A DNA stretch of 64,000 nucleotides. It comes from an uncultured bacterium. GTDB taxonomy: Bacteria; Omnitrophota; Omnitrophia; Omnitrophales; Abzuiibacteriaceae. Below the pieces are notes generated by a model, which had not been told where the DNA came from, did not search any database, and worked only from the letters and a program-made list of their open reading frames with translations. The stretch lies in NCBI GenBank assembly GCA_964387845.1, contig CAYLXA010000002.1, positions 211,584 to 275,583 on the forward strand, written 5' to 3'. Both the position numbers and the translations under genes were made by a program. The stretch's first letter is position 1, and every line of letters begins with the position of its first letter. Below are positions 31,488-45,930 of this stretch, in pieces.

Positions 31488-31493
31488 ACCGCA

Positions 31494-31889
31494 TTATCGC
31501 GTAAACGCCACAATATCTTTTGTGCCGGAAACACGGCTTGCTGGTTTATACTCTGACATTGACGGATGAGTTTCAGCCAAACTTTGCCGGTTTTCATCGC
31601 CTCTTTTTAAAAAAGCGACGACATCCTTGGTTCCGCGGGCTGACTCCGGGGCATTGGACTCAAACCTCATGCGTGAAGGCTCAAGTGTAGGCTTCGGTGC
31701 CTTCTGAAGTGCAAGATACTCGTGATATTTGTTCCATGCCACAATCGGCTTCGTTCCAGAGTATTCTTTCTGGAAATCAGCCAATGTTCTCATCGGCATC
31801 TGCTCGCCTGATATTTCTGCCGTTAAAATAGGCGTTGTACTCAAAATAAACGCGACTGTTAAAGCTATAATCAAATATCTGTTTTTCAT
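31494..31889 (-). CDS. secreted protein, paralog family A (GTKD[IV]VAF repeats)
   Basis: After a signal peptide comes the block ADFQKEYSGTKPIVAWNKYHEYLALQKAPKPTLEPSRMR, and then two GTKDxVAF(T/L)(R/K) repeats. It is a paralog of 45444-45851. Confidence 0.5.
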   Translation of the reverse strand: MKNRYLIIALTVAFILSTTPILTAEISGEQMPMRTLADFQKEYSGTKPIVAWNKYHEYLALQKAPKPTLEPSRMRFESNAPESARGTKDVVAFLKRGDENRQSLAETHPSMSEYKPASRVSGTKDIVAFTR

Positions 31890-31962
31890 GGTAGTGCTCC
31901 TTTCCGCTATTGAAACACGTTGAAGGACAAAAAGTTCCTTCAAAGAAACGAGTGGGTGGAAA

Positions 31963-32346
31963 TCAAATGCGAAGCACGAGATTTTTGATGAAGAGTTTTG
32001 GAGCTGATAAAGAAAATATCTGAGGAGGGGAAGTAGTTTTTAAATCCTGCTCTTGAAAAAATCCGCGAGAGACCTGCTCGGCTTCAATGCTCGCTTGATG
32101 CTGAAGTATCGGTGTTTTCATTTCGATACCGTTGCCGATCTTTAGCGCAAAAAGGGGCAGCATGCTCATGAGGCCATACTCGCTGCATTTACCCATCGGA
32201 CAATTAGGCATTCGATCGCAGCAATCATGCGATTTGGAAAATCGCAGGTGATCGCCCATTTGCGCGGCAGCGCATGGACAAAGATGAATCGCTGCGAAGC
32301 TAAAAATCACAAGCATTAAGATTAGAAAAGTTCTCTTATTTCGCAT
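31963..32346 (-). CDS. small secreted Cys/His/Met-rich protein (putative metal-binding)
   Basis: The signal peptide is followed by HLCPCAAAQMGDH...HDCCDRMPNCPMGKCSEYGLMSM. Confidence 0.45.
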   Translation of the reverse strand: MRNKRTFLILMLVIFSFAAIHLCPCAAAQMGDHLRFSKSHDCCDRMPNCPMGKCSEYGLMSMLPLFALKIGNGIEMKTPILQHQASIEAEQVSRGFFQEQDLKTTSPPQIFSLSAPKLFIKNLVLRI

Positions 32347-32478
32347 TTTGATTTCTCTGTAATAATTATAACACCTAAAGAACGCGGCTTCTAATTCTCA
32401 TCGCCACTAATACTTTACGGACTTTGGCTTAAAAATTTGAATTTTTCATGCCACTTTTACCTTATTTTCACACTACTT

Positions 32479-33879
32479 TTACCTGGCCAAGGGTACTGTT
32501 TCTTGATCCAGAGCAACTTTTGCTTGCCAACCGAATCGGTTCTTAATTTCAGAGGCAAGATGTTCTGCGCCAAGCGGTTCTCCGTGGACAATATAAACGG
32601 AACCAGGCGGTTTTTTAAATCCTGAAAGCCATTTCAAGATTTCCTCTTTGTCCGCATGAGCAGAGATACCTTGGAGAATCTCGACTTTCGCACAAACCTG
32701 AACCTCCGCGCCATGAATCCGAATTCTTTTGGCGCCTTCTTGCAACGACCTACCGCGAGTTCCGGCTGCCTGGAAGCCAGCCAAAAGAACCGTAGTCTTT
32801 GGGTCAGGAAGTCTTAATTTTAAATGATGAAGAATACGGCCGCCGGTTGCCATGCCGCTTGCGGAAATAATGATCATGGGGCCTGAAAGATCATTAAGCT
32901 TCCTTGATTCCTGAGGCGTGCGTACGAGATGGTATTGCTTGCAGCACAAAGGACATTTGTGCTCATCCATTAATGTTTTCATGTCCAAATCGTGATCTTC
33001 GGGATGTCTGCAATAAATATCTGAAACGTTAATAGCCATAGGGCTGTCGACATAAACTGGAAGTTCCGGAATTTGTTTTGCTTCTTCAAATTGACGAATC
33101 ATCCAGATCAGTTCCTGCGCTCTTCCCACAGCAAACGCGGGTATGAGAAGAACGCCTCCTTTTTGCGCTGTCTCATTGATCACGCGCACAAATTCATTTT
33201 CTGGATCAGGTGGATGAATCCGGTTGCCGTAAGTGGATTCGACTAACAAAATATCCGCTTCCGGAACAAATTCCGGATCACAAATCATCGGCTGATTCCA
33301 GCGACCCAGATCGCCTGAGAAAACGAGCTTTATAGGGCTCCCTTCTCCGATTTGCAACTCCACAATCGCAGAACCCAGAATGTGACCCGCGCGCCAAAAT
33401 GAGCCCGCGATGCCTTTTGCAATTTGAAATGGTTTGTGGTATTCAACCGACCGAAGATATCCAAGCGCTTTTTCGGCGTCTTCTGTCGTGTAAAGAGGAA
33501 GAGCCGGTTTATGCTTGGAGCAACCGTGGCGATTTGCAAATTCCGCCTCTTCCTCTTGCAAATGAGCCGCGTCAAGAAGCATGACATTAAGAAGATCCTT
33601 TGTGCCCGATGTGCAAAATATCTTTCCACGGAATCCTTCACGTACGAGTAAAGGCAAATAGCCCGAATGATCAATGTGTGCATGACTCAAAGCAATCGCA
33701 TCCAAATCGGAGGGATTAAACGGCGGCTTCGCCCAATTCCGCAAGCGGAGTTGCTTCAAACCTTGAAAGAGGCCCGCATCAAGCAAAATCTGCGAACGAC
33801 CCATCCGGATCAAATATTTGGAACCCGTCACAGTTCCGGCACCCCCAAAAAATGATAAGGTTGGAGAAGATTTATCCAT
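32479..33879 (-). CDS. MBL-fold metallo-hydrolase of the beta-CASP (RNA-metabolising) family
   Basis: HAHIDHSG is the MBL motif 2, and beta-CASP and C-terminal RMMBL-like regions follow. The start was set at the internal Met (MDKSS) to remove a likely artifactual extension. Confidence 0.7.
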   Translation of the reverse strand: MDKSSPTLSFFGGAGTVTGSKYLIRMGRSQILLDAGLFQGLKQLRLRNWAKPPFNPSDLDAIALSHAHIDHSGYLPLLVREGFRGKIFCTSGTKDLLNVMLLDAAHLQEEEAEFANRHGCSKHKPALPLYTTEDAEKALGYLRSVEYHKPFQIAKGIAGSFWRAGHILGSAIVELQIGEGSPIKLVFSGDLGRWNQPMICDPEFVPEADILLVESTYGNRIHPPDPENEFVRVINETAQKGGVLLIPAFAVGRAQELIWMIRQFEEAKQIPELPVYVDSPMAINVSDIYCRHPEDHDLDMKTLMDEHKCPLCCKQYHLVRTPQESRKLNDLSGPMIIISASGMATGGRILHHLKLRLPDPKTTVLLAGFQAAGTRGRSLQEGAKRIRIHGAEVQVCAKVEILQGISAHADKEEILKWLSGFKKPPGSVYIVHGEPLGAEHLASEIKNRFGWQAKVALDQETVPLAR

Positions 33880-34696
33880 GCTTTGTCGCCCTTGAAACAT
33901 AACACGAAGGATCCGCCTCAAACTTTTGCGCACAGCCTTGAGAACAAAAGAAATAGATTTTGTTCTTGTGTATTTTTTTAACAACCGCCGTTTTGAGAAG
34001 AATCCACATCCCACAAACAGGGTCGAGTTTCATGCCAGGTTTCGGATGATGCATCACACCCAAAGCGCTCTTGCCATTAAAATGGGACGGTTTCTTGAAA
34101 TGTTCCTTTTGATAAACGTTGATTAATCGTTTAATCAAATTTCCCGGTTCTTTTGAGTAAACAACACGGGCGCCGGTTTCCTTCTTGCAAGCAGCCAGAA
34201 TATCCCTTGCGATGTTGCTGATTCCGCCCGTTCCAGTGAGCACACCGATTAATTTTCCTTCATCGTAAGCGATCGCAAGCTCACCCAAAGTTCCGCTCCG
34301 GCCGCCAATGATCACGACGATATCCGAGCTGCGGATATTCACAACTTCGCGCCCCATAAGACCGCTTCCGGTATAAATCAGGATGTCGTGAAACTCGGTT
34401 GGGGAATGATACTTATTCACATGCTCGTCAAGACTAAGAGCAGGGGAAATTCCGACAACGATTCCATCTTCTTGCTTTGCCCCGCAAGCTGAAGCAAGTG
34501 GAAGGCCGGGACATGCTCCTGTAATGAGCACGCAGCCATTCTTCGCAATCGCTTCTCCTAAAAGGTGAGCTTTCTCAAGATGGAATTTCTTGATTTTCCC
34601 TGTAGCGCCGCCCATCACACCGATTTTCACTCGCATTCCGGCAATAGAAGGCGCGCTTGTCTTCCTATCGTTATGCATTATCCTTTTAATTCCCAT
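33872..34696 (-). CDS. LOG/TIGR00725-family Rossmann protein fused to a C-terminal YHS metal-binding domain
   Basis: The LOG-like part reads GVMGGATG...IGGRSGTLGEL. The C-terminal part reads DPVCGMWILLKTAVVKKIHKNKIYFFCSQGCAQKF, which fits the YHS pattern. Confidence 0.6.
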   Translation of the reverse strand: MGIKRIMHNDRKTSAPSIAGMRVKIGVMGGATGKIKKFHLEKAHLLGEAIAKNGCVLITGACPGLPLASACGAKQEDGIVVGISPALSLDEHVNKYHSPTEFHDILIYTGSGLMGREVVNIRSSDIVVIIGGRSGTLGELAIAYDEGKLIGVLTGTGGISNIARDILAACKKETGARVVYSKEPGNLIKRLINVYQKEHFKKPSHFNGKSALGVMHHPKPGMKLDPVCGMWILLKTAVVKKIHKNKIYFFCSQGCAQKFEADPSCYVSRATKHG

Positions 34697-34992
34697 TAAC
34701 TCTTCACTTTTTTCTCTAGCTCAGGTTCACGTTTTAACATTTTGTCAATGTATCGCTCCGTGTTTTTTTTCATAGCTTCCTTACACCTCTCAACGAGCGG
34801 GCAACAAACGCCATAGCGCTTCCCGTCAACAACGACAAAATCTTTCCCGTTCACGGGGTTGCCGCTCACAGGACAGTATTTGTTCCCAACCTCAACAACT
34901 TGAGTTGGTGTAGCCGGAGTTGCAGGGTCCGCATACAGATAAACGTTTCCAAACAGTATCGCAACCAACATCAAAAAAATTATTATTTTCAT
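34696..34992 (-). CDS. secreted YHS-like Cys-rich protein
   Basis: A signal peptide is followed by NKYCPVSGNPVNGKDFVVVDGKRYGVCCPLVERC. It resembles 48521-48949. Confidence 0.45.
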   Translation of the reverse strand: MKIIIFLMLVAILFGNVYLYADPATPATPTQVVEVGNKYCPVSGNPVNGKDFVVVDGKRYGVCCPLVERCKEAMKKNTERYIDKMLKREPELEKKVKS

Positions 34993-35005
34993 GACGGCGC
35001 CTCCT

Positions 35006-35206
35006 TTATTTTTTTAATTCGAGATAATTTTTGCCGTTTTCTTGCTTCATCACCACATGACCTTCACGACAGAGCCAGCCTACTGCCATCAAACCTACTT
35101 CTTTTCCTATTGAAACTTTTTGAAGAACATGTTCAAGCTCCAAAGCACCGTGTTCATCGAGCATTTTCCAAATTTCACCGGCTGTGATTCCGATTTCTGT
35201 GATCAT
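35006..35206 (-). CDS. small winged-helix-like protein, paralog family B
   Basis: The 66-aa sequence is MITEIGITAGEIWKMLDEHGALE...LMAVGWLCREGHVV. It belongs to the same family as 44026-44343 and 56918-57139. Confidence 0.55.
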   Translation of the reverse strand: MITEIGITAGEIWKMLDEHGALELEHVLQKVSIGKEVGLMAVGWLCREGHVVMKQENGKNYLELKK

Positions 35207-35214
35207 GTTCTCAC

Positions 35215-35601
35215 TTAACCACCTTCACAATACTTCCTGTGATCGTCCTTTCTCAAAAGCCGCTCATCCCAAAGCCAAATGAGCGCCAGAAAACCAAGCG
35301 ACCAACCGCCGATTTGAGATGGCACTTGATGAAAAATGGCGGCAACTACGAAACTGCTTACCAAAAGAATAAGTAAAGTCGGCAAGAGATTTCGATGGCA
35401 CAAAAACGACATGAAGCTTCTCAAGAGAAAAACGGATAGAGAAACCAGCATCACGATTCGCAATATCTTTTCGCTTGCCATCCAACCGAGTCCAATTGCG
35501 CTAAGCGAAGCGACTAAAAAAGGCAGCGCAAAGAAGCACAACCCGGCGCACATCAGACTCAAGGGACTTGCAAAGTTACATTTTTTCATCGATGCGCTCA
35601 A
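35215..35601 (-). CDS. small Cys-containing membrane protein (MerT-like, tentative)
   Basis: It has three or four TM helices, an MCAGLC motif in TM1 and a C-terminal KYCEGG. Confidence 0.35.
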   Translation of the reverse strand: MSASMKKCNFASPLSLMCAGLCFFALPFLVASLSAIGLGWMASEKILRIVMLVSLSVFLLRSFMSFLCHRNLLPTLLILLVSSFVVAAIFHQVPSQIGGWSLGFLALIWLWDERLLRKDDHRKYCEGG

Positions 35602-35631
35602 ATGTTATAAATTACCGGGTGCGAGAAATGT

Positions 35632-36615
35632 TTACGTTGCCAAAATCGGTAACAGTTTCAAACGAAATGGGTTTAACAACTTCTTCTCTGTAAACGCTTG
35701 CCGAAAGGGCGTCATCACAAGCTGCCCTTTTATTTTTCCGACAGCAACTTTCGTTTTCCCATGAATCATCTGCTCCGCAGCAAAAGCTCCCAATTCGGTT
35801 GCGAGAATTCTGTCCTGCGCTGTCGGTGATCCGCCCCGCTGCAGATGCCCCAAAACAACAACCCGATACTCATTGCCGCTCATTCTCTTAAGTTTTTCAG
35901 CGACTTGAAATGCGCCTCCCTCTTTCTCCCCTTCCGCAATAACAAGGATGCTGCTTGTTTTTCCTTTTTTCCTTGATAAACACAGCCGGCCACACACTTC
36001 CTTCAGCACAGTTTTGATTTCCGGCGTCAACACCTCTTCGGCTCCGCCCGCAATTCCCACATCGAGCGCAATAAACCCTGCTTCTCGGCCCATGACCTCA
36101 ACGAGAAAAAAACGTTCGTGTGACTCTGCCGTGTCACGAATCTTATCAATCGCATCCAAAGCAGTGTTGACTGCTGTGTCGTAGCCAATTGTCGAATCTG
36201 TTCCATACAAATCGTTATCGATGGTCCCCGGAATTCCAATGATTTTGCCTTTCCATATTTTAGAAAGATCAAGTGCTCCGCGATACGTTCCATTTCCACC
36301 AATCACAAGCAGACCGTCAATTTCCCTTTGCTCTAAATTAAATTTTGCTTGTTTTAAACCCTTGAGTGTTTCAAACTCTTTGCAACGCGAAGTTTTGATA
36401 ATTGTTCCACCTCTTTGAATAATATTAGAAACCGAACGAGAGCCAAGTTCGATAAACTCATTCTTAATTAACCCCTGATAACCTCTTAAAACACCGCAGA
36501 CGTTAAGACCTGAGTGGGTTGCAATACGTACGACAGCCCGTATGGCTGCGTTCATTCCGGGCGCGTCTCCGCCGCTTGTGAGCACTGCTATTCTTTTAAG
36601 CTTTTCTTTTGGCAT
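35632..36615 (-). CDS. 6-phosphofructokinase (second copy)
   Basis: IAVLTSGGDAPGMNAAIRAV is a PFK signature, over 327 aa. Confidence 0.8.
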   Translation of the reverse strand: MPKEKLKRIAVLTSGGDAPGMNAAIRAVVRIATHSGLNVCGVLRGYQGLIKNEFIELGSRSVSNIIQRGGTIIKTSRCKEFETLKGLKQAKFNLEQREIDGLLVIGGNGTYRGALDLSKIWKGKIIGIPGTIDNDLYGTDSTIGYDTAVNTALDAIDKIRDTAESHERFFLVEVMGREAGFIALDVGIAGGAEEVLTPEIKTVLKEVCGRLCLSRKKGKTSSILVIAEGEKEGGAFQVAEKLKRMSGNEYRVVVLGHLQRGGSPTAQDRILATELGAFAAEQMIHGKTKVAVGKIKGQLVMTPFRQAFTEKKLLNPFRLKLLPILAT

Positions 36616-36641
36616 AATCTGACGCTCTCAATCAATCGAAT

Positions 36642-36863
36642 TCACCGAAGCATTGGGCACATGCTCTTCCAGTGCAGTAACGGGCAACCATAAAACAGAA
36701 AAAACAAAGCGACGCCTAGAAGCAAAACGACCGTCCAAAGCAGAACATGCTTGTTTCGTCTTTGAATGTTGCCCACAACACTTCGGAAAAGTGATTGCAG
36801 TGCGAGCCGAAGTTCTAGGTTTGCCTCCTCTATGCTCTCACCCAAATTTCTCTGATTCTCCAT
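36642..36863 (-). CDS. small membrane protein, hypothetical
   Basis: The 73-aa ORF has one TM helix and is tightly packed within an operon. Confidence 0.25.
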   Translation of the reverse strand: MENQRNLGESIEEANLELRLALQSLFRSVVGNIQRRNKHVLLWTVVLLLGVALFFLFYGCPLLHWKSMCPMLR

Positions 36864-36888
36864 GACGCACCTCCCATTTTAACTTATC

Positions 36889-37248: not shown

Positions 37249-37312
37249 CTTTGCCTCCAGCCGTTCAGACCAATTTATATTTCTGCTCCGATACATTATA
37301 AATTTACAACAT

Positions 37313-37651: not shown

Positions 37652-37948
37652 TTAAAACACCTCCATCACACAATTGACTGTCCCAAAAGGATTTGGAACG
37701 CATTCCTCCGGAAGTTGATCGCTCTGCCAGACTCCGTCCGCAAGAAACCGGTATTCATACCGGCCGGGAGTGAGCTCAATGGTTACTTTCCATGTCCCAT
37801 CTTCTTCTTTTTTGAGCGGATTTTTTGTCAGATCCCAATTGTTGAATGTGCCCGCAATTTGAACTTGTTTTGCTTCAGGGGCGTAGAATTCAAATGATGT
37901 TTTTCTCTTCCGAGCTTTTCTTTCTTTGCTTACGTTTTTTGTTTCCAT
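37652..37948 (-). CDS. stand-alone CBM48 / AMPK-beta glycogen-binding-like domain protein
   Basis: FEFYAPEAKQVQIAGTFNNWD...GTWKVTIELTPGRYEYRFLADGVW matches the E-set/CBM48 pattern. Confidence 0.5.
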   Translation of the reverse strand: METKNVSKERKARKRKTSFEFYAPEAKQVQIAGTFNNWDLTKNPLKKEEDGTWKVTIELTPGRYEYRFLADGVWQSDQLPEECVPNPFGTVNCVMEVF

Positions 37949-37974
37949 TTTCGACCTCCTCGTTTTGTGAAATC

Positions 37975-40900
37975 TTAACTTACAATCCAAGCTGCTTTTC
38001 CTTCCTTCATTTCAAATTTCCATTTCCAAATAGCATAGACCACGGGATAAACCAAGAGTTCCAAGATGAACGACGTGAAAAGTCCTCCGATCATGGGAGT
38101 TGCGATCCGCTTCATCACGTCAGAACCTGCGCCGCTCGCCCACATGATGGGAATGAGGCCCATAAAAGCAGCCATCACTGTCATCATTTTTGGCCGGACA
38201 CGTTTTACAGCGCCATGAATAATTGCTTCTTCCAAATCTTCCTCTGTTTTCATTTTTCCTTTTTCAATGGCATCATGATAAGAAAGATCTAGAAAGAGAA
38301 GCATGAAGACACCCGTCTCCGCGTCCAGACCCATTAAAGCAATCATGCCGACCCAAACGGCGATTGAAACATTGTAGCCCAAAATCCAAAGCAGCCACAC
38401 GGCGCCAATTAAAGAAAATGGAACCGCGAGAAGCACAATGCCTGTTTTGACCGCGGATCGCGTATTCATATAAAGAAGAATACAAATCAAGAAGAGGGTG
38501 AGCGGAAGCACGACTTTTAAGCGCTCTTTCACACGGATCATATTTTCATATTGACCGCTCCAGAGAAGCGCATAACCTGGCTGAAGTTTAAGCTCCTTGG
38601 CCACAATCTTTTTTGCTTCTTCAACGTAAGTTCCAATGTCCCGTCCGGCCATATCCACATAAACATAACCAGCCAGAAGGCCGTTTTCATTTCGGATCAT
38701 CGCAGGACCTGTCACCATGCGAATATCTGCAAGCTGCGTGATGGGAATGTGCTGACCTGCCATCGTTGGAACAAGCACGCGTTTTAATTTCTCAATGTCG
38801 TCTCTCAGTTCTCGGGGATAACGAACATTCACAGGATAACGTTCTCTGCCTTCAATGGTCGTCGTAATGTTTTCACCACCAATGGCGGACATAATCACCA
38901 TCTGAACGTCAGCGATTGAAAGACCATAGCGGGCAATCTCATCACGTTTTATATCGAAATCAATAAAATAACCACCTGCCACACGTTCAGCGTAAATACT
39001 TCGAGTGCCCGGAACATCTTTTAAAATCATCTCAAGATGAGTCCCTATTTTTTCAATTTCATTAATGTCTGATCCTAAGACTTTAATTCCGATCGGCGTC
39101 CTGACACCTGTTGTCAACATATCAATCCTGTTTTTAATGGGCATTGTCCACGCGTTCGTAGTTCCGGGAAGCTTAAGCGCTTGATCCATTTCATTAATGA
39201 GATCTTCATGGGAAATCCGTTCCGGCCAAATATATTCAAATGGCCATTTGAACCATTCGGGCATCCATTTGGAATACCAACGGGTCTTCTTTCGCCATTC
39301 ACCGTGTGGTTTCAGCGTCACCACCGTTTCCCCCATGGAAAATGGAGCTGGATCTGTCGAACTCTCGATACGGCCAGATTTTCCGAAAACGCGCTCAACT
39401 TCTGGGAACGATTTTAGAATCTGATCTTGTTTCTTAAGAAGCTTCTGCGCGCTTGCCACAGAAATGCCAGGCAATGTCGTCGGCATATAAAGAAGAGAGC
39501 CTTCCCATAAAGGCGGCATGAATTCAGATCCTAAACGCAAATAGATTGGAATCGTCGTCAACACAAGGAAAAGTGCTGTCACAATCGTCGTCTTGCGATG
39601 TTTTAGAACGAAACGACAAACGGGTTCATAGATCCTGAAAAGAACTTTGCTGACGGGATGTTTTTCTTCCGGATAATAAGTCCCGACCGCAACCGTCGTG
39701 GCAATTTTGGAAGCCCATTTTGATTTAAATTTAAAAGGTTCCATTCTGGTAAAAAGCATTCGCAGAGCTGGATCTAACGTAATGGCCAAGATAGCGGCAA
39801 CCGCCATCGCCAAATTCTTTGCCCAAGCAAGCGGTTTAAAAAGACGGCCTTCTTGATCAACCAAGGTGAAAATGGGCATGAAAGAAACGGCTATTACAAG
39901 AAGCGAGAAAAAAACAGCAGGGCCAACTTCTTTTAAAGCTTGAAGCCGGATCGCATGATAATCGCCTTTTCGCCCACCCTCGATCCATTGTTCCAGTCGC
40001 TTGTACGCATTTTCGACTTCCACAATAGCACCGTCTACCAAGACGCCGATGGAAATCGCTATTCCTGAAAGTGACATAATGTTCGAGGTTAAATTCATCC
40101 GGTGAAGAAAAATAAAAGAAAGCAAAACTGAAATTGGAATGGTGACAATTGGAATAACCGCGGATGGGAAATGCCAGAGAAATATCAGAATGACGATGCT
40201 GACAATGATCATTTCCTCAAACAGTTGGTGTTTTAAAGTATCGATGGCATGTTCGATTAATTCAGAGCGGTCATAGGTCACGACCAGTTCAACGCCGACA
40301 GGAAGAGAAGGCCCCAAATCTTTGATCTTTGCTTTGACACGGTTAATCACGTTGAGCGCATTTTCTCCAGAGCGCATGATAACGGTGCCTGTGACCGTAT
40401 CGCCTTGGCCATCAAGATCAGCGAGACCGCGCCGGATTTCAGGCCCAAGCGAAACCGTCCCGATGTGCTTCACTAAGACGGGCGTTCCTTTGGAATCCAC
40501 CGCGACCACAATTTGTTCAAAATCCTCAACTGATTTTCCGTAACCGCGCCCTCTCACCATATATTCCGCGCCCGAAAATTCAATTAATCGCCCGCCCACT
40601 TCTTGATTTCCGCTGCGAATGGCTTCCACCACTTTCGTCAGCGGAATGTTATAGGCGAGGAGTTTGTTGGGATCTACGGTTATTTGATATTGCTTGACGA
40701 AACCGCCGAGTGTTGCGACTTCCGCTACACCGGAAACACTTTGAAGGTGGTAACGAAGATACCAATCTTGAAAGGATCTTAATTCTTGTAGATTGTGCTT
40801 GCCGGTTTTATCAACCAATGCGTATTGAAAAACCCACCCGACACCAGTCGCGTCAGGGCCAAGTTCAGTTTGGACGCCTTGCGGAAGGCGCGGGATGATT

Positions 40901-41295
40901 TTGCTTAAATATTCAAGTGTGCGGCTTCTCGCCCAATATAGATCCGTACCGTCCTTAAAAATGACGTACACATAGGAAAACCCAAAATCTGAAAATCCCC
41001 GAATGGCTTTGACATTTGGCGCACCCAACATCGAAGTGACAATGGGGTAAGTCACTTGGTCTTCAATAATGTCCGGGCTTCTGTCCCATCTTGAATAAAT
41101 AATGACTTGCGTATCAGAAAGATCAGGAATCGCATCGAGTGGAATACTTTTAATCGACCACACAGCTGCGGCAATCGCAACAGCAGTGAGAATAAAAATA
41201 AGGAATTTGTTATGCGCTGAGAATTCGATGATTTTTTCGACAAAACCGCCCTGCCTCAGCTTGTGCGATTGAAGCCCTTCTTTTTCATCCGCCAT
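37975..41295 (-). CDS. heavy-metal efflux RND permease, CusA/CzcA family
   Basis: The 1106-aa protein has 12 TM helices and large periplasmic loops, with an HME-RND family N-terminus. Confidence 0.9.
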   Translation of the reverse strand: MADEKEGLQSHKLRQGGFVEKIIEFSAHNKFLIFILTAVAIAAAVWSIKSIPLDAIPDLSDTQVIIYSRWDRSPDIIEDQVTYPIVTSMLGAPNVKAIRGFSDFGFSYVYVIFKDGTDLYWARSRTLEYLSKIIPRLPQGVQTELGPDATGVGWVFQYALVDKTGKHNLQELRSFQDWYLRYHLQSVSGVAEVATLGGFVKQYQITVDPNKLLAYNIPLTKVVEAIRSGNQEVGGRLIEFSGAEYMVRGRGYGKSVEDFEQIVVAVDSKGTPVLVKHIGTVSLGPEIRRGLADLDGQGDTVTGTVIMRSGENALNVINRVKAKIKDLGPSLPVGVELVVTYDRSELIEHAIDTLKHQLFEEMIIVSIVILIFLWHFPSAVIPIVTIPISVLLSFIFLHRMNLTSNIMSLSGIAISIGVLVDGAIVEVENAYKRLEQWIEGGRKGDYHAIRLQALKEVGPAVFFSLLVIAVSFMPIFTLVDQEGRLFKPLAWAKNLAMAVAAILAITLDPALRMLFTRMEPFKFKSKWASKIATTVAVGTYYPEEKHPVSKVLFRIYEPVCRFVLKHRKTTIVTALFLVLTTIPIYLRLGSEFMPPLWEGSLLYMPTTLPGISVASAQKLLKKQDQILKSFPEVERVFGKSGRIESSTDPAPFSMGETVVTLKPHGEWRKKTRWYSKWMPEWFKWPFEYIWPERISHEDLINEMDQALKLPGTTNAWTMPIKNRIDMLTTGVRTPIGIKVLGSDINEIEKIGTHLEMILKDVPGTRSIYAERVAGGYFIDFDIKRDEIARYGLSIADVQMVIMSAIGGENITTTIEGRERYPVNVRYPRELRDDIEKLKRVLVPTMAGQHIPITQLADIRMVTGPAMIRNENGLLAGYVYVDMAGRDIGTYVEEAKKIVAKELKLQPGYALLWSGQYENMIRVKERLKVVLPLTLFLICILLYMNTRSAVKTGIVLLAVPFSLIGAVWLLWILGYNVSIAVWVGMIALMGLDAETGVFMLLFLDLSYHDAIEKGKMKTEEDLEEAIIHGAVKRVRPKMMTVMAAFMGLIPIMWASGAGSDVMKRIATPMIGGLFTSFILELLVYPVVYAIWKWKFEMKEGKAAWIVS

Positions 41296-42562
41296 GTTGA
41301 TGCCCTCCGCCTCCGCCCATTCCCTGAAGCGCCGCTTTTAAACGGCTTTCCGAGTCAATCAGAAAATTGCCGCTTGTCACAACGATCTCACCTTCCTCAA
41401 GCCCGCTTTTGACTTGATAACCATTTTCCGTTTTGACTCCCAAGCTTACTTCGCGGGGCTCAAAGACACCTCCTTCTTTCATCACGAAAACAACGTTTTT
41501 CTCGCCCGTTGAAAATACCGCTTCCGTGGGAACCGTCACGCTTTCTCCCAAATTAATTTTGAGCATCGCGTTCGCGTACATTTCCGGTTTGAGCAAACCT
41601 TCCGGATTCTCAAGAATCGCCCGAACGCGCACAGACCGCGTCATGGGATCGAGAACAGAATCAATCGAACGGATAACTCCTTGAACCTTTTTATCCGGAA
41701 CAGACGGAATTTCAATTTCAAGCGTATCGCCAACTTTCACAAGGGGGATTTCATATTCATAAATCGGCGCATAAAGCCACACGCGGCCCCCCACATCGGA
41801 ATAAAGAAGAGAGCGATCCGGTTTTCCCAAAGTTTCTATTTCGCCGACAAGATCGCTGCTTAATCCGAGAAGTCGCAGCTTAATTTTGGCGGAATCGACA
41901 AGCTTCGCGGCTTGTTCTTTAATTTCCGGAACTGCGTTTTCGGCTTTTTTGAGAGCGCTAATCGCTTGTAAATACTCTTCTTGTGCTTGATAAAGCTCAG
42001 GGTCATAAGCAATGCGGCCTACGGTGCGTATCGTTTTTTCAATAACCATTTTTTTCACCGGCGCCGTCTCAATTCCGATTGCCTGTTGTTTGTCATGCGA
42101 TACAGTCACTTTGGCGTAGCCCTCGGGCGCCATTTGTTTAATCAGGATTCCTAAATCTTCACCGCAGTGAGGGCATTTGCCCGTTTTCGCAATTTCTTCC
42201 GTTATGGCAAACATGCACTTGCCCATTTTGCATTTATGAAGAAGGCAAATCTCTCCGGGTTTCATATTCATTAACTCTTTTATGGTTAATTCTTTAACAG
42301 CATCTGCGCCAGTGGGCGTAGCTTGTTGATGAGCTTCGTGAGAAGATTGTTCGCTGGTCTCTTCTTTTTTCACGAGCGACATATTGCAGATTGGGCAGCT
42401 GCCCGGGCGGTCGGACGTGTAAGTCGGATGCATGGGACAGTAATAAAGAGCCTTTTTTGATGATACTTTTTGACCCGCACCTTGGATAATTCCAGATTGG
42501 TAAGCCCAAATTCCTCCAAAGACGACAATAAAGATTAAAGCAATTGGAATAATTCTTTTCAT
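41285..42562 (-). CDS. RND efflux periplasmic adaptor (CusB-like) with N-terminal CPMHP-type metal-binding module
   Basis: The N-terminus reads YYCPMHPTYTSDRPGSCPICNMSL, with a second KCPHCGEDL motif, ahead of the HlyD-like barrel and lipoyl regions. Confidence 0.8.
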   Translation of the reverse strand: MKRIIPIALIFIVVFGGIWAYQSGIIQGAGQKVSSKKALYYCPMHPTYTSDRPGSCPICNMSLVKKEETSEQSSHEAHQQATPTGADAVKELTIKELMNMKPGEICLLHKCKMGKCMFAITEEIAKTGKCPHCGEDLGILIKQMAPEGYAKVTVSHDKQQAIGIETAPVKKMVIEKTIRTVGRIAYDPELYQAQEEYLQAISALKKAENAVPEIKEQAAKLVDSAKIKLRLLGLSSDLVGEIETLGKPDRSLLYSDVGGRVWLYAPIYEYEIPLVKVGDTLEIEIPSVPDKKVQGVIRSIDSVLDPMTRSVRVRAILENPEGLLKPEMYANAMLKINLGESVTVPTEAVFSTGEKNVVFVMKEGGVFEPREVSLGVKTENGYQVKSGLEEGEIVVTSGNFLIDSESRLKAALQGMGGGGGHQHGG

Positions 42563-43935
42563 TTTTTCTCCTCGCTCTGAATTAAATCAATACCCGTAGC
42601 GCGTACTAAATCCGCAAAACTACTGACTGCTTCCGTATAAAAACGAATCTGCGTGAGTTTTGCGTTCAAATAAACGCGCTCACTGTCTAATAGATTCAAA
42701 AAATCCATTTTGCCAGCCTCATATCCTGCTTGATCGGCAGAGAGAGCAAGCTTGGCTTGAGGGATGACAGCGGTTTCATAAAGGTCTGAAATGTCGCTTG
42801 CTGCTTTGTATCTGTGATAAGCGTCTTTGACTTCATAAAAGGTTGTGTTCTTAGCTTCCAGGAGTTTCGCTTGACTTGCTTCAAACATCTTTTGTGCTTC
42901 CTGAATTTCAGGAATAATCCGGTTCTGCCAAATAGGAAGGTTAAACCGTATGGGAAACATCCAGCTATCCTTGCCGTCGTCAGGATCCTCGGTCATTCCG
43001 GAACCGACCTGCGTGTATTCAAATCCGATATTGATATCCGGAATATTGGCAAGCTTGGCAAGCGTCTTCGCCTGTCCGCTTCGCGCCACCATGGCTTCCA
43101 TTTCTTTGATTTCTTGGCGATTTCGAACCGCCAAATTTACAAGCTCTACCAAAGATTGTTTTAAAACCGGCTTTTCGGGAGTGTTCGGAGAACCTAACGA
43201 AAGCATCGGATCACGGTCTAAAAGAGCATTGATCATTGCAGTGGTCGTTTCCCGTTCCCGTTTGAGCATAAATAATTTCTCCAATGTCATTGAGACTTCG
43301 GCTTGAGCTTTCGCCACATCGCGCTGAGCGCCTGACAGATTGGAATAGCGCGCCTCGGCCACGCTTTCAAATTTCTTGAGAAGCTCCTTGACCTCCTCAA
43401 TGGTTTGAAGCGATTGATCGACATAATAAAGTTCGCTGTAAAGCTTAGTGAGTTGATTGATCACATCGCGCTGCACGGCAAGATACTTTTGATATTTTGC
43501 ACGTGCCTCTTCATTTGCCATTTTTCCTTTCTTAACCAGCTTCAAGGGAAAGGGCATCTCCTGCGAAACCATAACCCTGTTTTCTTGAGGCCCGACTCGC
43601 GTCTCGACCATTTCCCCCATCAGGTCAAAACCTGCCATCGGATCCGGAAGCGCAGAATCGATCCAAATTCTTTTTTTGGCGGCAAGCCATTCGGCATGAG
43701 CGGCCACAATTCCGGGATTTTTTTCTCTGGCCATTTTGATCAAATCAGGCAGAAGTAAAACCAATTCCGCCGGTGCTTTTTCTGTCGGAGGAATCTCTGG
43801 CGCTTGAGTTTCTTGGGCATGGGTGGCTGCGGCGAAGTTCATCGCTAAGATGAAGAACAGAAAGTATTTAAAAAAAATCCGCCTCGATCTTTTCTCACAA
43901 CCCGCTTTTTTTAGATTAACCATAAATGATTCCAC
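42559..43935 (-). CDS. TolC-family outer-membrane efflux protein
   Basis: It has a signal peptide and two OEP repeats, and it overlaps the adaptor start. Confidence 0.8.
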   Translation of the reverse strand: MESFMVNLKKAGCEKRSRRIFFKYFLFFILAMNFAAATHAQETQAPEIPPTEKAPAELVLLLPDLIKMAREKNPGIVAAHAEWLAAKKRIWIDSALPDPMAGFDLMGEMVETRVGPQENRVMVSQEMPFPLKLVKKGKMANEEARAKYQKYLAVQRDVINQLTKLYSELYYVDQSLQTIEEVKELLKKFESVAEARYSNLSGAQRDVAKAQAEVSMTLEKLFMLKRERETTTAMINALLDRDPMLSLGSPNTPEKPVLKQSLVELVNLAVRNRQEIKEMEAMVARSGQAKTLAKLANIPDINIGFEYTQVGSGMTEDPDDGKDSWMFPIRFNLPIWQNRIIPEIQEAQKMFEASQAKLLEAKNTTFYEVKDAYHRYKAASDISDLYETAVIPQAKLALSADQAGYEAGKMDFLNLLDSERVYLNAKLTQIRFYTEAVSSFADLVRATGIDLIQSEEKK

Positions 43936-44025
43936 ACCTTAATCCTAACGAACAAGAAAAAGCATCGTACCAAAGAATAAAAGCATAATTAACGTGAGGA
44001 TGTTAAAGAATCCAGTCCTGTGGAT

Positions 44026-44343
44026 TCACTCTTTGCTCCTCTCACTGAGCATGACAAACAATTTCCCATTCGTCCTTAGCATCAGCACATGTCCTTCCCG
44101 GCAGAGCCATCCCAAAGCCATAAGAGTAATTACCCGATTCTGTGACAGGCGGCTTGTCAGCAATGAAAACTCAAGCGGGTCTTCCTCATCCAGGACAGTC
44201 CAGATTTCACCGGCAGCAATACCGATCTTTGTAATTGTGGAAGTATCTGAAAAAATCCTTACGTTCATTTCTTGAAGAACGCTTGACAATTCTGATTTTG
44301 TGGCAACAAAAGTTTCCGTTATCATATTCGCCTCCTGAAGCAA
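44026..44343 (-). CDS. small winged-helix-like protein, paralog family B (start uncertain)
   Basis: ITKIGIAAGEIWTVLDEEDPLEF...LMALGWLCREGHVL places it in family B. It has a longer N-terminus, and the start could be M7 or M26. Confidence 0.5.
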   Translation of the reverse strand: MLQEANMITETFVATKSELSSVLQEMNVRIFSDTSTITKIGIAAGEIWTVLDEEDPLEFSLLTSRLSQNRVITLMALGWLCREGHVLMLRTNGKLFVMLSERSKE

Positions 44344-44805
44344 TTACGCTTCCATGCCGGCCATGTTCATTTGTTTCATCGATTCCTGAAGTTTGGCGTG
44401 CAGCTGTGCTAAGTATTTCTCGGTTTGTTCGGACGTCAGTTCTTTTCTCACTTCGAGAATGTGTGCGGCGACTCCTTTTTCCAAGGAAATCTGTAGCGCG
44501 CCAATTTCCTCAACCTTTTGATCAATCGTCTTCGCATTCGCTTTTGGGTCCCCCAACATTCGCAGTAGTTCAAAACGCCCTTGGCATACTTTCATGCAAA
44601 TTTGATCCGCCGATTTCTGGAAGGTGGAATCCAATTTCTTCAAAGTTTCCGTCTGCTTCGCACTCAGTCCCAAGTTGGAATACCCTTCCCCTTGAGAGCG
44701 ATAACCCATCGGGCACATGGTCATGTTGCACATTTTTTGACTTGCCCAAAATCCAAAAAGCGTCACCATGGCAATCAACACTGCAAAGAAAAGCAGTCTC
44801 CTCAT
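44344..44805 (-). CDS. periplasmic LTXXQ-motif (CpxP/Spy/ZraP-like) heavy-metal sensor/chaperone
   Basis: A signal peptide is followed by a Met/Cys cluster (CNMTMCPMGY) and two LTxxQ-type motifs (LSAKQTETL, LTSEQTEKY). An ATGA overlap links it to the anti-sigma gene. Confidence 0.6.
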   Translation of the reverse strand: MRRLLFFAVLIAMVTLFGFWASQKMCNMTMCPMGYRSQGEGYSNLGLSAKQTETLKKLDSTFQKSADQICMKVCQGRFELLRMLGDPKANAKTIDQKVEEIGALQISLEKGVAAHILEVRKELTSEQTEKYLAQLHAKLQESMKQMNMAGMEA

Positions 44806-45299
44806 GACAAATTCCTTTCTTCGATCATAGTTAAATACGTTCCAGCGATCGAAGGAGATGGAATTCCTTTGTATTCTTGAAATCCGGAAAGGGTCTGAAT
44901 GGCTGAAGCAGGCCTTTGATTGAGACTCCAAATTTGGCCGCCGGAAGCCGAAAACCATCCGCCTGCGCTTCCAATAAGAAAAGCGATTGAAAGCACGGCA
45001 AACGCTTGAGATAAATTTGGAATTGGAATCGTCCATTCAAGATTCTTGAGGAGCTTTGAAAACCATGGCTCCTTGGAACGCGCGTAAACCTTACGCCAGA
45101 AAGCAGCATCAAAATCAGGGGAAGGCTCAATTGTTGCAATTGAAGTCCGGAGAACGTTCTGAAGCGTTTTTGCGACTTCAAATTCCTTTTGACAGGAAAA
45201 ACAAGCCTTTACATGCAATTCAAAGTCCCTTCCAACGGACTCTCGCAAGTTTCCATCCAGCCACCGTTCCATATTTTCTTGAATCAATTGACATTTCAT
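44802..45299 (-). CDS. zf-HC2 anti-sigma factor (membrane-spanning)
   Basis: The N-terminal zinc-finger motif reads HVKACFSCQKEF, with a single TM helix and a periplasmic tail. It lies immediately downstream of the ECF sigma region. Confidence 0.6.
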   Translation of the reverse strand: MKCQLIQENMERWLDGNLRESVGRDFELHVKACFSCQKEFEVAKTLQNVLRTSIATIEPSPDFDAAFWRKVYARSKEPWFSKLLKNLEWTIPIPNLSQAFAVLSIAFLIGSAGGWFSASGGQIWSLNQRPASAIQTLSGFQEYKGIPSPSIAGTYLTMIEERNLS

Positions 45300-45443
45300 T
45301 TTTTTATTCCTCTTATCAGTTCAACGCATGAAAGAACTGTCTCCCCCAAACTTTTTTCAAAAAATTCACGGTTGACCTTCCAAAAACAAAGACCCTGAAT
45401 CATTTCGTCAACCAATTCAAGGCCTTTTCCTTTTTGATTTCAA

Positions 45444-45851
45444 TTACCGCCTCGGCCTTGTGAAAGCAACGACTGCTTTCGTGCCGGGCGCCGGATTGGG
45501 ATTCAAAAAGGGGCGGCTTTTATCCACGTATTTTTCAAGTCCCTCGCTATTCCAGTTGCGGGATCTGGTAAATTTAACAATATCCTTGGTACCGCTAATC
45601 CCCTCAAACGGCGGTGCGGGTTCTATTCGCATGCGGGACGGCTCCAAGGTGGGCTTTGGCATTTTTTGAAGTGCGAGGTAATCATGATACTTCATCCATG
45701 CCACAACGGGTTTTGTCCCGTAGTATTCTTTCTGAAAATCTGCGAACGTCTTTGTGGGGGTTTGCTCGACTGCTGAATCAAGTGCGTAAGCGGATACAGC
45801 CAATATCCCCAAACTGATTAAAAAGCTTGAGTATTTTATAAGGTGTTTCAT
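45444..45851 (-). CDS. secreted protein, paralog family A (GTKD[IV]VAF repeats)
   Basis: The block FADFQKEYYGTKPVVAWMKYHDYLALQKMPKPTLEPSRMR is followed by GTKDIVKFTR and GTKAVVAFTR repeats. Confidence 0.5.
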   Translation of the reverse strand: MKHLIKYSSFLISLGILAVSAYALDSAVEQTPTKTFADFQKEYYGTKPVVAWMKYHDYLALQKMPKPTLEPSRMRIEPAPPFEGISGTKDIVKFTRSRNWNSEGLEKYVDKSRPFLNPNPAPGTKAVVAFTRPRR

Positions 45852-45930
45852 CTTCCCCTCCTCCTCGTTTTATGTTCCTACTTAGTAAACGCTTGAGGAG
45901 AGAAAAACCCCCTTACTTTTTTAGGATTAA

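What the first reader, a model, noticed from the sequence alone, without database searches (positions are those of the whole stretch)
31494..45851. Novel secreted paralog family with an internal GTKD[IV]VAF(T/L)R repeat
The genes at 31494-31889 and 45444-45851 both encode proteins of about 130 aa with a signal peptide. They share a conserved block (A/L)DFQKEY(S/Y)GTKP(I/V)VAW(N/M)KYH(E/D)YLALQK.PKPTLEPSRMR and then two copies of a short GTKD(I/V)V(A/K)F(T/L)(R/K) motif. One copy lies at the end of the YHS/LOG operon and the other inside the ECF sigma / anti-sigma cluster. I do not recognise the family.
Basis: seen in the sequence. Interest (0 to 1): 0.5.

Follow-up and report, generated by a model that had tools for sequence, protein, structure and literature searches.

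The report
Undescribed secreted protein in metal-stress loci
The two genes are real paralogs of an undescribed family of small exported proteins that, in uncultivated (Omnitrophota-type) bacteria, sits between a stress sigma factor and its anti-sigma factor in copper/heavy-metal efflux loci and is nearly always paired with a secreted TPR protein, so it is probably a new periplasmic accessory part of a metal-stress signalling circuit and not a metal binder.

Summary
Both ORFs lie on the minus strand and encode 131-aa and 135-aa proteins with signal peptides. They are 55% identical (E 2e-37). The GTK motif occurs three times, not twice.

No Pfam, NCBIfam or PDB family matches. An exhaustive profile search finds 49 cluster representatives, all 78-175 aa. 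dN/dS is 0.10.

The family unit is a 26-aa helix-loop-helix module, KTLADFQxEYSGTKPVVAWxKYxEY, present 1-3 times. The short GTKxVVxF motifs are degenerate half-modules in a disordered, basic, Cys-free tail.

Context in 21 loci:
- 14 have an adjacent secreted 3-TPR protein. In the window this is 30942-31487, next to copy A.
- About 10 show ECF sigma, then the family member, then anti-sigma, a CnrX-like Metal_resist protein and a CusA/CzcA pump. Copy B is of this type.
- A conserved two-block motif, GGGGG-N16/17-CGTT, precedes the sigma-adjacent copies and the anti-sigma genes. This suggests ECF control.

Best reading (0.4): a periplasmic protein-interaction accessory of a CnrYXH-like metal-stress circuit, with the TPR protein as partner. 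Metal binding is unlikely because no His, Met or Cys is conserved.

I rate it a new variant of a known kind, of moderate interest.

The parts
45444..45851 (-). Copy B of the new family (135 aa), between the ECF sigma and anti-sigma genes. Signal peptide is about aa 1-23.
   Evidence: dN/dS 0.10 against the L001 ortholog. AF2 is confident only for aa 36-63, a helix-loop-helix.
31494..31889 (-). Copy A of the new family (131 aa), convergent with the TPR gene and downstream of the Cys-rich 127-aa gene.
45675..45752 (-). Copy B full 26-aa module KTFADFQKEYYGTKPVVAWMKYHDYL.
   Evidence: module HMM i-E 2.9e-19; coordinates checked
45627..45662 (-). Copy B Pro-rich linear motif MPKPTLEPSRMR. Family consensus is P-x-P-T-L-x-x-S-R-phi-R, with L invariant and P, T, R nearly invariant.
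45564..45593 (-). Copy B short motif 2, GTKDIVKFTR (degenerate half-module).
45456..45485 (-). Copy B short motif 3, GTKAVVAFTR (degenerate half-module).
31713..31790 (-). Copy A full 26-aa module RTLADFQKEYSGTKPIVAWNKYHEYL.
   Evidence: module HMM i-E 3.2e-21
31665..31700 (-). Copy A linear motif APKPTLEPSRMR.
31605..31634 (-). Copy A short motif 2, GTKDVVAFLK.
31497..31526 (-). Copy A short motif 3, GTKDIVAFTR, at the C-terminus.
30942..31487 (+). Secreted 181-aa protein with three TPR repeats and a conserved C-terminal tail (QGLEFL...QDL..FLL.QGLP). It is convergent with copy A across a 6-nt gap and is the conserved gene partner of the family.
   Evidence: Pfam TPR hits. Orthologs lie adjacent to the family member in 14 of 21 loci.
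31963..32346 (-). Cys/His/Met-rich secreted 127-aa protein with no family match. It is the conserved upstream neighbour of A-type copies.
   Evidence: no hits; homologs upstream in L011, L012, L026/L007, L009
32359..32375 (-). Sigma-70-like extended -10 region (GGTGTTATAATTATTAC) upstream of the Cys-rich gene and copy A.
   Evidence: TATAAT/TATACT at the same position in L011, L012, L026. Inference only.
45931..46551 (-). ECF sigma factor (206 aa), immediately upstream of copy B.
   Evidence: Pfam Sigma70_r2/r4_2/ECF; NCBIfam sigma70-ECF
45888..45912 (-). Candidate ECF-type promoter GGGGG-N16-CGTT upstream of copy B.
   Evidence: Only strict match in the window. The same two-block motif lies upstream of the family member in L001, L006, L010, L014/L019, L015, L016, L021, L024.
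45323..45347 (-). Second copy of the GGGGG-N16-CGTT motif, upstream of the anti-sigma gene.
   Evidence: Same position in L006, L014/L019, L015, L016, L018.
44802..45299 (-). Single-pass anti-sigma factor (165 aa) with an N-terminal zf-HC2-like domain and a conserved ~30-aa periplasmic tail.
   Evidence: Pfam zf-HC2 18.9 bits, below the cutoff. Orthologs in L021 hit PF13490. Alignment of tails.
44344..44805 (-). Membrane-anchored Metal_resist (CnrX/CpxP/ZraP-type) protein. Its start overlaps the anti-sigma stop by 4 nt (ATGA).
   Evidence: PF13801 33.4 bits, above the 29.2 cutoff
37975..43935 (-). OEP, membrane-fusion protein with a heavy-metal-binding domain, and CusA/CzcA-family RND pump.
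   Evidence: TIGR00914, 1088.8 bits

Best explanation
The two genes encode paralogs of an undescribed family of small, Sec-exported, basic, cysteine-free proteins. Family members are built from 1-3 copies of a 26-aa helix-loop-helix module (KTLADFQxEYSGTKPVVAWxKYxEY, with GTKP in the loop and N-cap of the second helix). The module is followed by a Pro-rich linear motif (PxPTLxxSRphiR) and a disordered tail that carries degenerate half-modules (GTKxVVxF[LT][KR]). I propose that the protein is a periplasmic protein-interaction accessory of a CnrYXH-like metal-stress circuit made of an ECF sigma, a single-pass anti-sigma and a membrane-anchored CnrX-like sensor, which controls a CusA/CzcA-type efflux pump. 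In this model the sigma-adjacent copy (B) is the first gene transcribed from a conserved ECF-type promoter, so it is induced with the anti-sigma and the pump. Its module and linear motifs are bound by the co-encoded secreted 3-TPR protein and/or by the periplasmic parts of the anti-sigma and sensor, and so tune signalling by feedback. Copy A is a copy under housekeeping-type promoter control, kept with the TPR gene and a Cys-rich secreted protein. Shown here: homology, family extent, export signals (rule-based), purifying selection, synteny, conservation of the promoter-like motif, and the lack of conserved metal ligands. Inferred: binding to the TPR protein, the regulatory role, and the direction of any feedback.
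For: The family is real and under selection. Modular helix-loop-helix units sit on disordered linkers: AF2 pLDDT is 85-95 for the module only, with pTM 0.33-0.34, in both copy B and the 3-module member P0007. ECF sigma lies immediately upstream in W_B, L001, L006, L010, L014/L019, L015, L021, L024 and L028. The anti-sigma lies directly downstream, with a 4-nt overlap in L024 and L029, or after the TPR gene or an insert. A Metal_resist protein and an OEP/MFP(HMBD)/CusA-CzcA pump follow. The two-block motif GGGGG-N16/17-CGTT occurs upstream of the family member and again upstream of the anti-sigma gene across genomes that differ widely in GC content and sequence. The strict pattern has no off-target hits in the window or the loci. 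A TPR partner is adjacent in 14 of 21 loci, 13 convergent and 1 divergent. Charges are complementary: the family has median pI 9.8 and net charge +6, while 8 of 11 TPR partners have pI 4.8-5.6. In the CnrYXH precedent the sensor binds the anti-sigma's periplasmic C-terminus and the sigma drives two promoters (PMC6851896).
Against: There is no direct evidence of any interaction. The family shows no detectable similarity to the anti-sigma tail, to Metal_resist or to TPR profiles, so mimicry is not supported. Gene adjacency fits an effector role as well as a regulatory one. Five loci lack an adjacent TPR gene (W_B/L001, L021, L024, L025, L028/L029). The promoter assignment rests on motif conservation only, and its -35 block (GGGGG) is not the usual GGAAC of ECF promoters. 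Only one locus has a taxon name (Candidatus Omnitrophota).
Confidence: 0.4

Rival explanations
1. The protein is an effector of the regulon and not a regulator. On this view it is a periplasmic protective or chaperone-like factor (a basic, disordered 'shield' or holdase, possibly loaded or held by the TPR protein) produced with the efflux pump during metal stress. It would have no influence on sigma activity.
For: It is the first gene behind the conserved ECF-type promoter and is co-transcribed with pump genes. It also occurs away from sigma/anti-sigma genes in metal islands next to a multicopper oxidase, CsoR, CDF and MerT/CopZ-like genes. It has a disordered, basic tail under purifying selection. 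The neighbouring Metal_resist family includes the periplasmic chaperones Spy, CpxP and ZraP (Pfam PF13801; family knowledge).
Against: The position between sigma and anti-sigma, with translational coupling to the anti-sigma in L024 and L029, is more typical of a signalling partner. No chaperone-like fold or family similarity was found.
Confidence: 0.3
2. The protein is a periplasmic metal-binding protein or metallochaperone, analogous to CusF, CopK or SilE/PcoE, that hands Cu/Ag to the pump or buffers it.
For: It always sits in copper or heavy-metal contexts. It is small, periplasmic, repetitive and partly disordered, like SilE/PcoE (comparison from my own knowledge).
Against: The family is Cys-free, with a mean of 1.6 His and 2.2 Met per mature protein. 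None of these is conserved. The invariant or near-invariant residues are F, G, K, P, P, T, L, R, K. The net charge of +6 disfavours cation binding.
Confidence: 0.07
3. The protein is a precursor of secreted or modified peptides (RiPP-like, with repeated core peptides GTKxVVAF), or an activator peptide for a PDZ protease, as MucE is.
For: It has repeated short motifs, one of them close to the C-terminus, and a signal peptide.
Against: No modifying enzyme, peptidase or transporter is conserved next to it in the 21 loci. The C-terminus ends in basic residues (TR, TRPRR, LKR), not in a free aromatic-x-aromatic end as in MucE or OMP signals. The motifs are remnants of a larger folded module.
Confidence: 0.03
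4. The ORFs are spurious or untranslated, and the similarity is a chance or DNA-level repeat.
For: None was found.
Against: BLASTP gives E 2e-37. There are 49 diverged relatives. dN/dS is 0.10 with dS 0.85. Both ORFs have strong ribosome-binding sites. Synteny is conserved.
Confidence: 0.01

Closest known systems
CnrYXH nickel/cobalt-sensing module of Cupriavidus metallidurans (ECF sigma CnrH, anti-sigma CnrY, periplasmic sensor CnrX) controlling the CnrCBA RND pump
   Same: The locus has the same logic: an ECF sigma, a single-pass anti-sigma, a membrane-anchored Metal_resist (PF13801) protein coupled to the anti-sigma gene, and an HME-RND tripartite pump. It also has two copies of a candidate sigma-dependent promoter, matching cnrYp and cnrCp (PMC6851896 read).
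   Different: CnrYXH has no counterpart of the new family or of the secreted TPR protein. Gene order differs: here it is sigma, new family, anti-sigma, sensor, whereas cnr is Y-X-H. The anti-sigma here is zf-HC2-like and not CnrY-like. The metal context is copper (multicopper oxidase, P-type ATPase, HMBD domains) and not Ni/Co. Sigma group membership was not tested.
SilE/PcoE periplasmic disordered metal-binding proteins of Ag/Cu resistance loci (comparison from my own knowledge)
   Same: Both are small, exported, repetitive and largely disordered, and both are encoded in Cu/Ag efflux loci.
   Different: SilE/PcoE bind metal through repeated His/Met motifs. The new family has none conserved and is Cys-free.
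MucE/RseB-type small periplasmic modulators of ECF sigma/anti-sigma signalling (comparison from my own knowledge)
   Same: Both are small exported proteins that are genetically linked to an ECF sigma/anti-sigma pair and could act on the periplasmic side.
   Different: There is no sequence or fold similarity. The new family lacks a free C-terminal aromatic motif. No PDZ protease is conserved nearby.
Three-TPR proteins that bind short linear peptides, such as class II type III secretion chaperones with PxLxxP ligands, or NlpI as an adaptor (comparison from my own knowledge)
   Same: The partner is a ~150-aa mature protein with three TPRs close to the TPR consensus. The new family offers conserved Pro-rich and short helical linear motifs in a disordered chain.
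   Different: The partner here is exported and is not linked to type III secretion or to a protease. Binding has not been shown.
CpxP/Spy/ZraP LTXXQ helical-hairpin proteins
   Same: Both have a helical-hairpin unit. The module begins L-x-D-F-Q, which resembles LTXXQ (exactly LTDFQ in P0013). The gene next door is of that superfamily.
   Different: Profile comparisons fail: no Pfam hit and hhalign probability of 3.4% against the neighbouring Metal_resist proteins.

Membership tests
Any curated family in Pfam-A (2025) or NCBIfam 20.0 | Profile match at or above the curated cut-off | tested here: not met
   Both copies give 0 families at E<=10 in both libraries. When 35 members were scanned singly, only scattered chance hits appeared, best E 0.005 in 2 members.
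Proteins with a solved structure (PDB) | Sequence-profile or fold match | tested here: not met
   Profile against PDB sequences: best E 0.039, and not credible. Foldseek against PDB: best E 2.7. The model has low pTM, so the fold search is weak evidence.
CpxP/Spy/ZraP/CnrX superfamily (LTXXQ, Metal_resist PF13801) | Profile similarity to the LTXXQ/Metal_resist helical hairpin | tested here: not met
   No Pfam hit. hhalign against six neighbouring Metal_resist proteins gives probability 3.4%.
Sec-exported proteins | N-terminal signal peptide: basic n-region, hydrophobic core, small-x-small cleavage site | tested here: met
   Rule-based check: 70 of 74 full-length members pass, with PAYA/PAFA/PAYG before the cut in 34. 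Copy B has SAYA|L and copy A has ILTA|E, which is less canonical. SignalP was not available.
CnrYXH-like ECF metal-sensing locus (locus level, not the new protein itself) | ECF sigma factor encoded in the locus | tested here: met
   Sigma70_r2 56.7 bits, r4_2 43.4 bits, Sigma70_ECF 28.7 bits; TIGR02937 99.7 bits.
CnrYXH-like ECF metal-sensing locus | Single-pass anti-sigma factor encoded with the sigma | tested here: inconclusive
   zf-HC2 scores 18.9 bits, below the 22.2 cut-off. Orthologs in L021 and L023 carry PF13490 without a weak mark. The transmembrane segment was judged by eye only. It is not of the CnrY class.
CnrYXH-like ECF metal-sensing locus | Membrane-anchored periplasmic sensor of the Metal_resist/CnrX family coupled to the anti-sigma | tested here: met
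   PF13801 scores 33.4 bits against a 29.2 cut-off. There is a 4-nt ATGA overlap with the anti-sigma stop. The metal-binding residues of CnrX were not checked.
CnrYXH-like ECF metal-sensing locus | Heavy-metal RND tripartite pump as target operon | tested here: met
   TIGR00914 CusA/CzcA scores 1088.8 bits against a 701 cut-off. The MFP has an HMBD domain, and an OEP is present.
CnrYXH-like ECF metal-sensing locus | Sigma-dependent promoters in front of the regulatory and pump operons | tested here: inconclusive
   A conserved GGGGG-N16/17-CGTT motif lies in both places in 6 or more genomes. There are no transcription data.
SilE/PcoE-type periplasmic metal sponge | Repeated His/Met (or Cys) metal-binding motifs | tested here: not met
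   Mean Cys is 0.02, His 1.6 and Met 2.2 per mature protein. None of these residues is conserved.
MucE-type activator of a PDZ site-1 protease | Free C-terminal aromatic-x-aromatic motif | tested here: not met
   C-termini are ...AFTR...AFTRPRR...FLKR...LKRG.
TPR-ligand pair | Physical binding of the ligand in the TPR groove | not testable with these tools
Only adjacency (14 of 21 loci) and charge complementarity are available.

The most novel reading that the evidence does not exclude
The new protein and the secreted TPR protein together form a periplasmic signalling pair that has not been described before, adding a fourth and fifth component to CnrYXH-type metal sensing. In this reading the protein is an ECF-induced, intrinsically disordered, multivalent ligand (hairpin module, PxPTLxxSRxR motif and GTKxVVxF half-modules) that titrates the TPR protein away from, or onto, the anti-sigma/CnrX-like complex. 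This would set the gain or shut-off of the copper-stress response. The window's genome has split this function into an inducible copy (B) and a copy A whose operon carries a conserved sigma-70-like -10 element, pointing to ECF-independent expression.
Probability: 0.15. Interest if true: 0.65.

Novelty: new variant of a known kind. Interest (0 to 1): 0.45.

Why it matters
ECF sigma/anti-sigma pairs are a main route by which bacteria sense the envelope, and only a few metal-responsive mechanisms are understood (FecIR, CnrYXH, CorE, CarQR). This locus resembles a CnrYXH-type circuit in an uncultivated lineage, and it carries two extra conserved exported components with no described relatives. One of them lies between the sigma and anti-sigma genes behind a conserved promoter-like motif. 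If the pair modulates signalling, it would be a new kind of periplasmic input or feedback. It would also be a compact set of parts (sigma, promoter motif, anti-sigma, modulators) that could be tested in heterologous hosts. If it is only an effector, it is still an unannotated family that could now be named and modelled for genome annotation of Omnitrophota-type MAGs.

Tried and rejected
- Pfam and NCBIfam scans of both copies at E<=10, and of 35 members singly, found nothing.
- The PDB sequence-profile search and Foldseek against PDB found nothing credible. The afdb50 library was unavailable.
- Mimicry idea. By eye, the anti-sigma periplasmic tail (LSGFQEYKGIPSPSIAGTYL) resembles the module (LADFQKEYSGTKPIVAWNKY). 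The test failed: module HMM against seven anti-sigma sequences gave E>=0.05 with no hit on the tail, and hhalign gave probability 0.8%. Rejected.
- LTXXQ/CpxP-like idea (L-x-D-F-Q against LTXXQ): hhalign against the neighbouring Metal_resist proteins gave 3.4%. Rejected.
- The word-indexed homolog search found only 4 proteins with one sequence. With the 35-sequence profile it was swamped and returned 8 hits. The exhaustive search and a second profile were needed.
- The first genome contigs attempt failed because the alignment was too diverse. The second found only one GTDB genome, so taxonomy rests on one named MAG. The window's organism was not identified.
- The generic sigma-70 promoter and terminator scan was at shuffle level and uninformative.
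- Literature searches for ECF, TPR and heavy metal, or for Omnitrophota, sigma factor and copper, found nothing relevant.
- No further copies of the family or of the TPR partner occur in the window.

Full report
**Observation**

The two ORFs exist at exactly the stated coordinates, but on the minus strand. The plus-strand translations are full of stops.
- Copy A (31494-31889) encodes 131 aa and copy B (45444-45851) encodes 135 aa.
- Both have strong Shine-Dalgarno sequences.
- They align at 55% identity over 104 residues, E 2e-37.
There are three GTK motifs, not two, because the first (GTKP[IV]VAW) lies inside the conserved block.

**Is it a real, translated family?**

Neither copy matches any Pfam-A or NCBIfam model, even at E<=10. 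The word-indexed search found only the two proteins themselves and two close orthologs of B.

An exhaustive HMMER search of 1.84 billion cluster representatives, using a profile of the mature regions, found 49 representatives with E<=1e-3 and 25 with E<=1e-10. All are 78-175 aa. A second profile search added about 28 more sequences.

By a simple rule (basic n-region, hydrophobic core, small-x-small site), 70 of 74 full-length members have a Sec-type signal peptide, most often ending PAYA or PAFA.

Copy B compared with an 83%-identical ortholog on a metagenomic contig gives dN 0.086 and dS 0.85, so dN/dS is 0.10. The ratio is 0.08 in the C-terminal tail. These values are similar to or lower than those of the flanking sigma and anti-sigma genes.

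**Anatomy of the protein**

The family consensus has these parts in order:
- a signal peptide;
- the module KTLADFQ(K/R)EYSGTKPVVAWxKYxEY;
- the linear motif APRPTLExSRMR;
- a linker, then GTKPVVxFLK, another linker, and GTKPVVxxLKR at or near the C-terminus.

Several members repeat the whole 26-aa module two or three times (P0006, P0007, P0009, P0015, P0022). A module HMM aligns the short C-terminal motifs of copies A and B in register to module positions 11-21. It detects two significant copies in 24 members and three in 8. MAFFT also aligns the last short motif of single-module proteins with the last full module of multi-module proteins. The short 'GTKD[IV]VAF' repeats are therefore degenerate half-modules.

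AlphaFold2 on copy B with a 35-sequence alignment is confident only for residues 36-63: a short helix, the YYGTKP loop, then a longer helix, with pLDDT 85-95. The rest is predicted disordered with weak short helices at the GTK motifs. Mean pLDDT is 70.7 and pTM 0.34. The three-module member P0007 gives three separate helix-loop-helix units on low-confidence linkers, pTM 0.33.

The mature proteins are basic (median pI 9.8, net charge +6) and essentially Cys-free. They average 1.6 His and 2.2 Met, and none of these is conserved. The invariant or near-invariant residues are F, G, K, P, P, T, L, R, K. Foldseek and PDB sequence searches give nothing.

**Genomic context**

I collected 21 distinct loci: the two in the window, one GTDB genome, ten metagenome contigs and further contigs looked up by exact protein. 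Three associations recur.

(i) A secreted protein of about 175 aa with three TPR repeats.
- It is orthologous to window 30942-31487 and has a conserved C-terminal tail.
- It lies next to the family member in 14 of 21 loci: 13 convergent and one divergent.
- In the window it pairs with copy A across a 6-nt gap. Copy B has none.

(ii) An ECF sigma factor.
- It lies immediately upstream in W_B, L001, L006, L010, L014/L019, L015, L021, L024 and L028.
- A zf-HC2-type single-pass anti-sigma follows, either directly (4-nt overlap in L024 and L029) or after the TPR gene.
- In L014, L015 and L019, Amt/PII/glutamine-synthetase genes are also inserted before the anti-sigma.
- Next come a membrane-anchored Metal_resist (PF13801) protein and an OEP/MFP(HMBD)/CusA-CzcA pump.

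(iii) Other loci still lie in metal islands.
- In five loci a Cys/His/Met-rich secreted protein (window 31963-32346) lies upstream.
- Neighbours elsewhere include a multicopper oxidase, CsoR-like repressors, CDF, and MerT/HMA/CopZ-like genes.

In the window, 47-62 kb is a copper island. It holds a multicopper oxidase with an HMBD domain, a P-type ATPase, HMBD proteins, DsbA-like proteins and a second RND pump.

**A conserved promoter-like motif**

In all sigma-adjacent loci the family member is preceded by an A/T-rich stretch followed by GGGGG(G/A)-N16/17-CGTT(T). The spacer sequence is not conserved and the distance to the start codon varies. This holds for W_B, L001, L006, L010, L014/L019, L015, L016, L021 and L024.

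The same motif recurs upstream of the anti-sigma gene whenever that gene is separated from the family member: W 45323-45347, L006, L014/L019, L015, L016 and L018.

The strict pattern occurs once in the 64-kb window (0.39 expected) and nowhere else in the loci.

I read this as the ECF-dependent promoter, which makes copy B the first gene of the sigma's target operon. This is inference from conservation only. The -35 block is not the usual GGAAC.

Copy A and its Cys-rich upstream gene lack the motif. They have instead a TATAAT/TATACT -10-like element that is conserved in L011, L012 and L026.

**Mechanism**

The locus as a whole resembles CnrYXH/CnrCBA. In that system a membrane-anchored Metal_resist-type sensor holds the periplasmic C-terminus of a single-pass anti-sigma, and the sigma drives two promoters (PMC6851896). 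The new family and the TPR protein have no counterpart there.

Four features point to a protein-interaction role:
- the placement between sigma and anti-sigma;
- translational coupling to the anti-sigma in the compact loci;
- an exported, disordered, multivalent architecture;
- the absence of conserved metal ligands.

The most likely function is therefore a periplasmic protein-interaction accessory of this circuit, with the three-TPR protein as its likely partner (confidence 0.4). TPR proteins of this size typically bind short linear or helical peptides (my own knowledge). The family is basic, whereas 8 of 11 partners are acidic.

A weak correlation fits the PxPTLxxSRxR motif as the TPR ligand. 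The multi-module members that lack this motif (L024, L025, L028, L029) have no TPR neighbour, while motif-bearing members mostly do. The numbers are small.

Rivals:
- an effector with a protective or chaperone-like role (0.3);
- a metal-binding protein (0.07);
- a peptide precursor or protease activator (0.03);
- a spurious ORF (0.01).

**Ideas tested and rejected**
- The anti-sigma's conserved periplasmic tail looks similar to the module by eye, but neither HMM nor profile-profile comparison supports this.
- The L-x-D-F-Q start of the module resembles LTXXQ, but there is no profile similarity to the neighbouring Metal_resist proteins.
- Complex prediction was not possible.

**Novelty and limits**

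The family is not in Pfam, NCBIfam or the PDB. The one named member is a 'hypothetical protein' of Candidatus Omnitrophota. Literature searches found nothing on it.

I class it as a new variant of a known kind: a CnrYXH-like ECF metal circuit with two extra, undescribed exported components.

Taxonomy rests on a single named MAG, and the window's organism was not identified. All functional statements beyond homology, export signals, selection, synteny and motif conservation are inference.

Noticed in passing
window 31963-32346 (-): Secreted 127-aa protein rich in Cys, His and Met (LCPC, HDCC, MPNCPMGKC; C-terminal PP..LFI...L(L/R)I). It has no Pfam or NCBIfam match. Homologs lie directly upstream of the family member in L011, L012, L026/L007 and L009. 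It is a candidate periplasmic copper-binding protein and an undescribed family of its own.
   Followed up: partly
window 45888-45912 and 45323-45347 (-); L006 7849 and 8999; L014 7919 and 11098; L015 2273 and 7910; L016 591 and 1702; L018 1121; L021 2640; L024 1784: Two-block motif GGGGG-N16/17-CGTT(T), preceded by an A/T-rich stretch. It is conserved upstream of the family member and of the anti-sigma gene across diverged genomes. It is a candidate ECF promoter with an unusual G-run in the -35 block.
   Followed up: yes
window 35006-35206 (-) and 44026-44343 (-): Two paralogous DUF2582 winged-helix proteins, one in each half of the metal island. DUF2582 genes also recur in related loci (L001, L007, L026).
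   Followed up: no
window 33872-34696 (-): A fusion of a SLOG (LDcluster4) domain with a C-terminal YHS domain. It is conserved in L001. A 98-aa secreted protein with a CPVSG...CC motif lies just upstream (34696-34992).
   Followed up: no
window 44802-45299 (-); L001, L006, L014, L015, L018 orthologs: The anti-sigma factor has a conserved ~30-aa periplasmic C-terminal tail, SG[FY]x[ED][YF]KG[ILM]PxSS..[TA]YL..IE. Its stop overlaps the Metal_resist start by 4 nt (ATGA). This fits a CnrY/CnrX-like docking pair.
   Followed up: partly
L014 8900-11166, L015 3240-7908, L019 7900-10166: In relatives, ammonium transporter, PII and (in L015) type III glutamine synthetase genes lie between the TPR gene and the anti-sigma gene. 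This splits the sigma from its anti-sigma by 2-5 kb.
   Followed up: no
window 31485-31496; L014 8370-8408; L015 2710-2748; L019 7370-7408: The family member and the TPR gene are convergent with almost no spacer. The gap is 6 nt in the window and the 3' ends overlap by ~39 nt in L014, L015 and L019. No terminator lies between them, so transcriptional interference or antisense effects are possible.
   Followed up: no
window 47639-62416 (-): A copper island. It contains DUF2231 (46990-47619), a stand-alone HMBD protein (48138-48494), a multicopper oxidase with a C-terminal HMBD (49104-50561), an OEP, a P-type ATPase (52941-54833), DUF302, two DsbA-like thioredoxins and a second RND tripartite pump (57136-62416). 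Several 110-146-aa ORFs there have no Pfam hit.
   Followed up: partly
window 23115-27863 (-): A 1582-aa ORF with no Pfam hit at E<=1e-4, lying between threonyl-tRNA synthetase and the metal island.
   Followed up: no
window 35632-36615 (-) and 37652-37990 (-): A phosphofructokinase gene and a small CBM48/AMPK-CBM domain protein lie inside the metal-resistance gene string. The CBM48 gene is also kept in L001.
   Followed up: no
window 46558-46956 (-): A 132-aa membrane-anchored protein with a weak CcmH-like match (19.5 bits, below the cutoff) and a CxxC-type motif lies directly upstream of the ECF sigma. It is conserved in L001.
   Followed up: no
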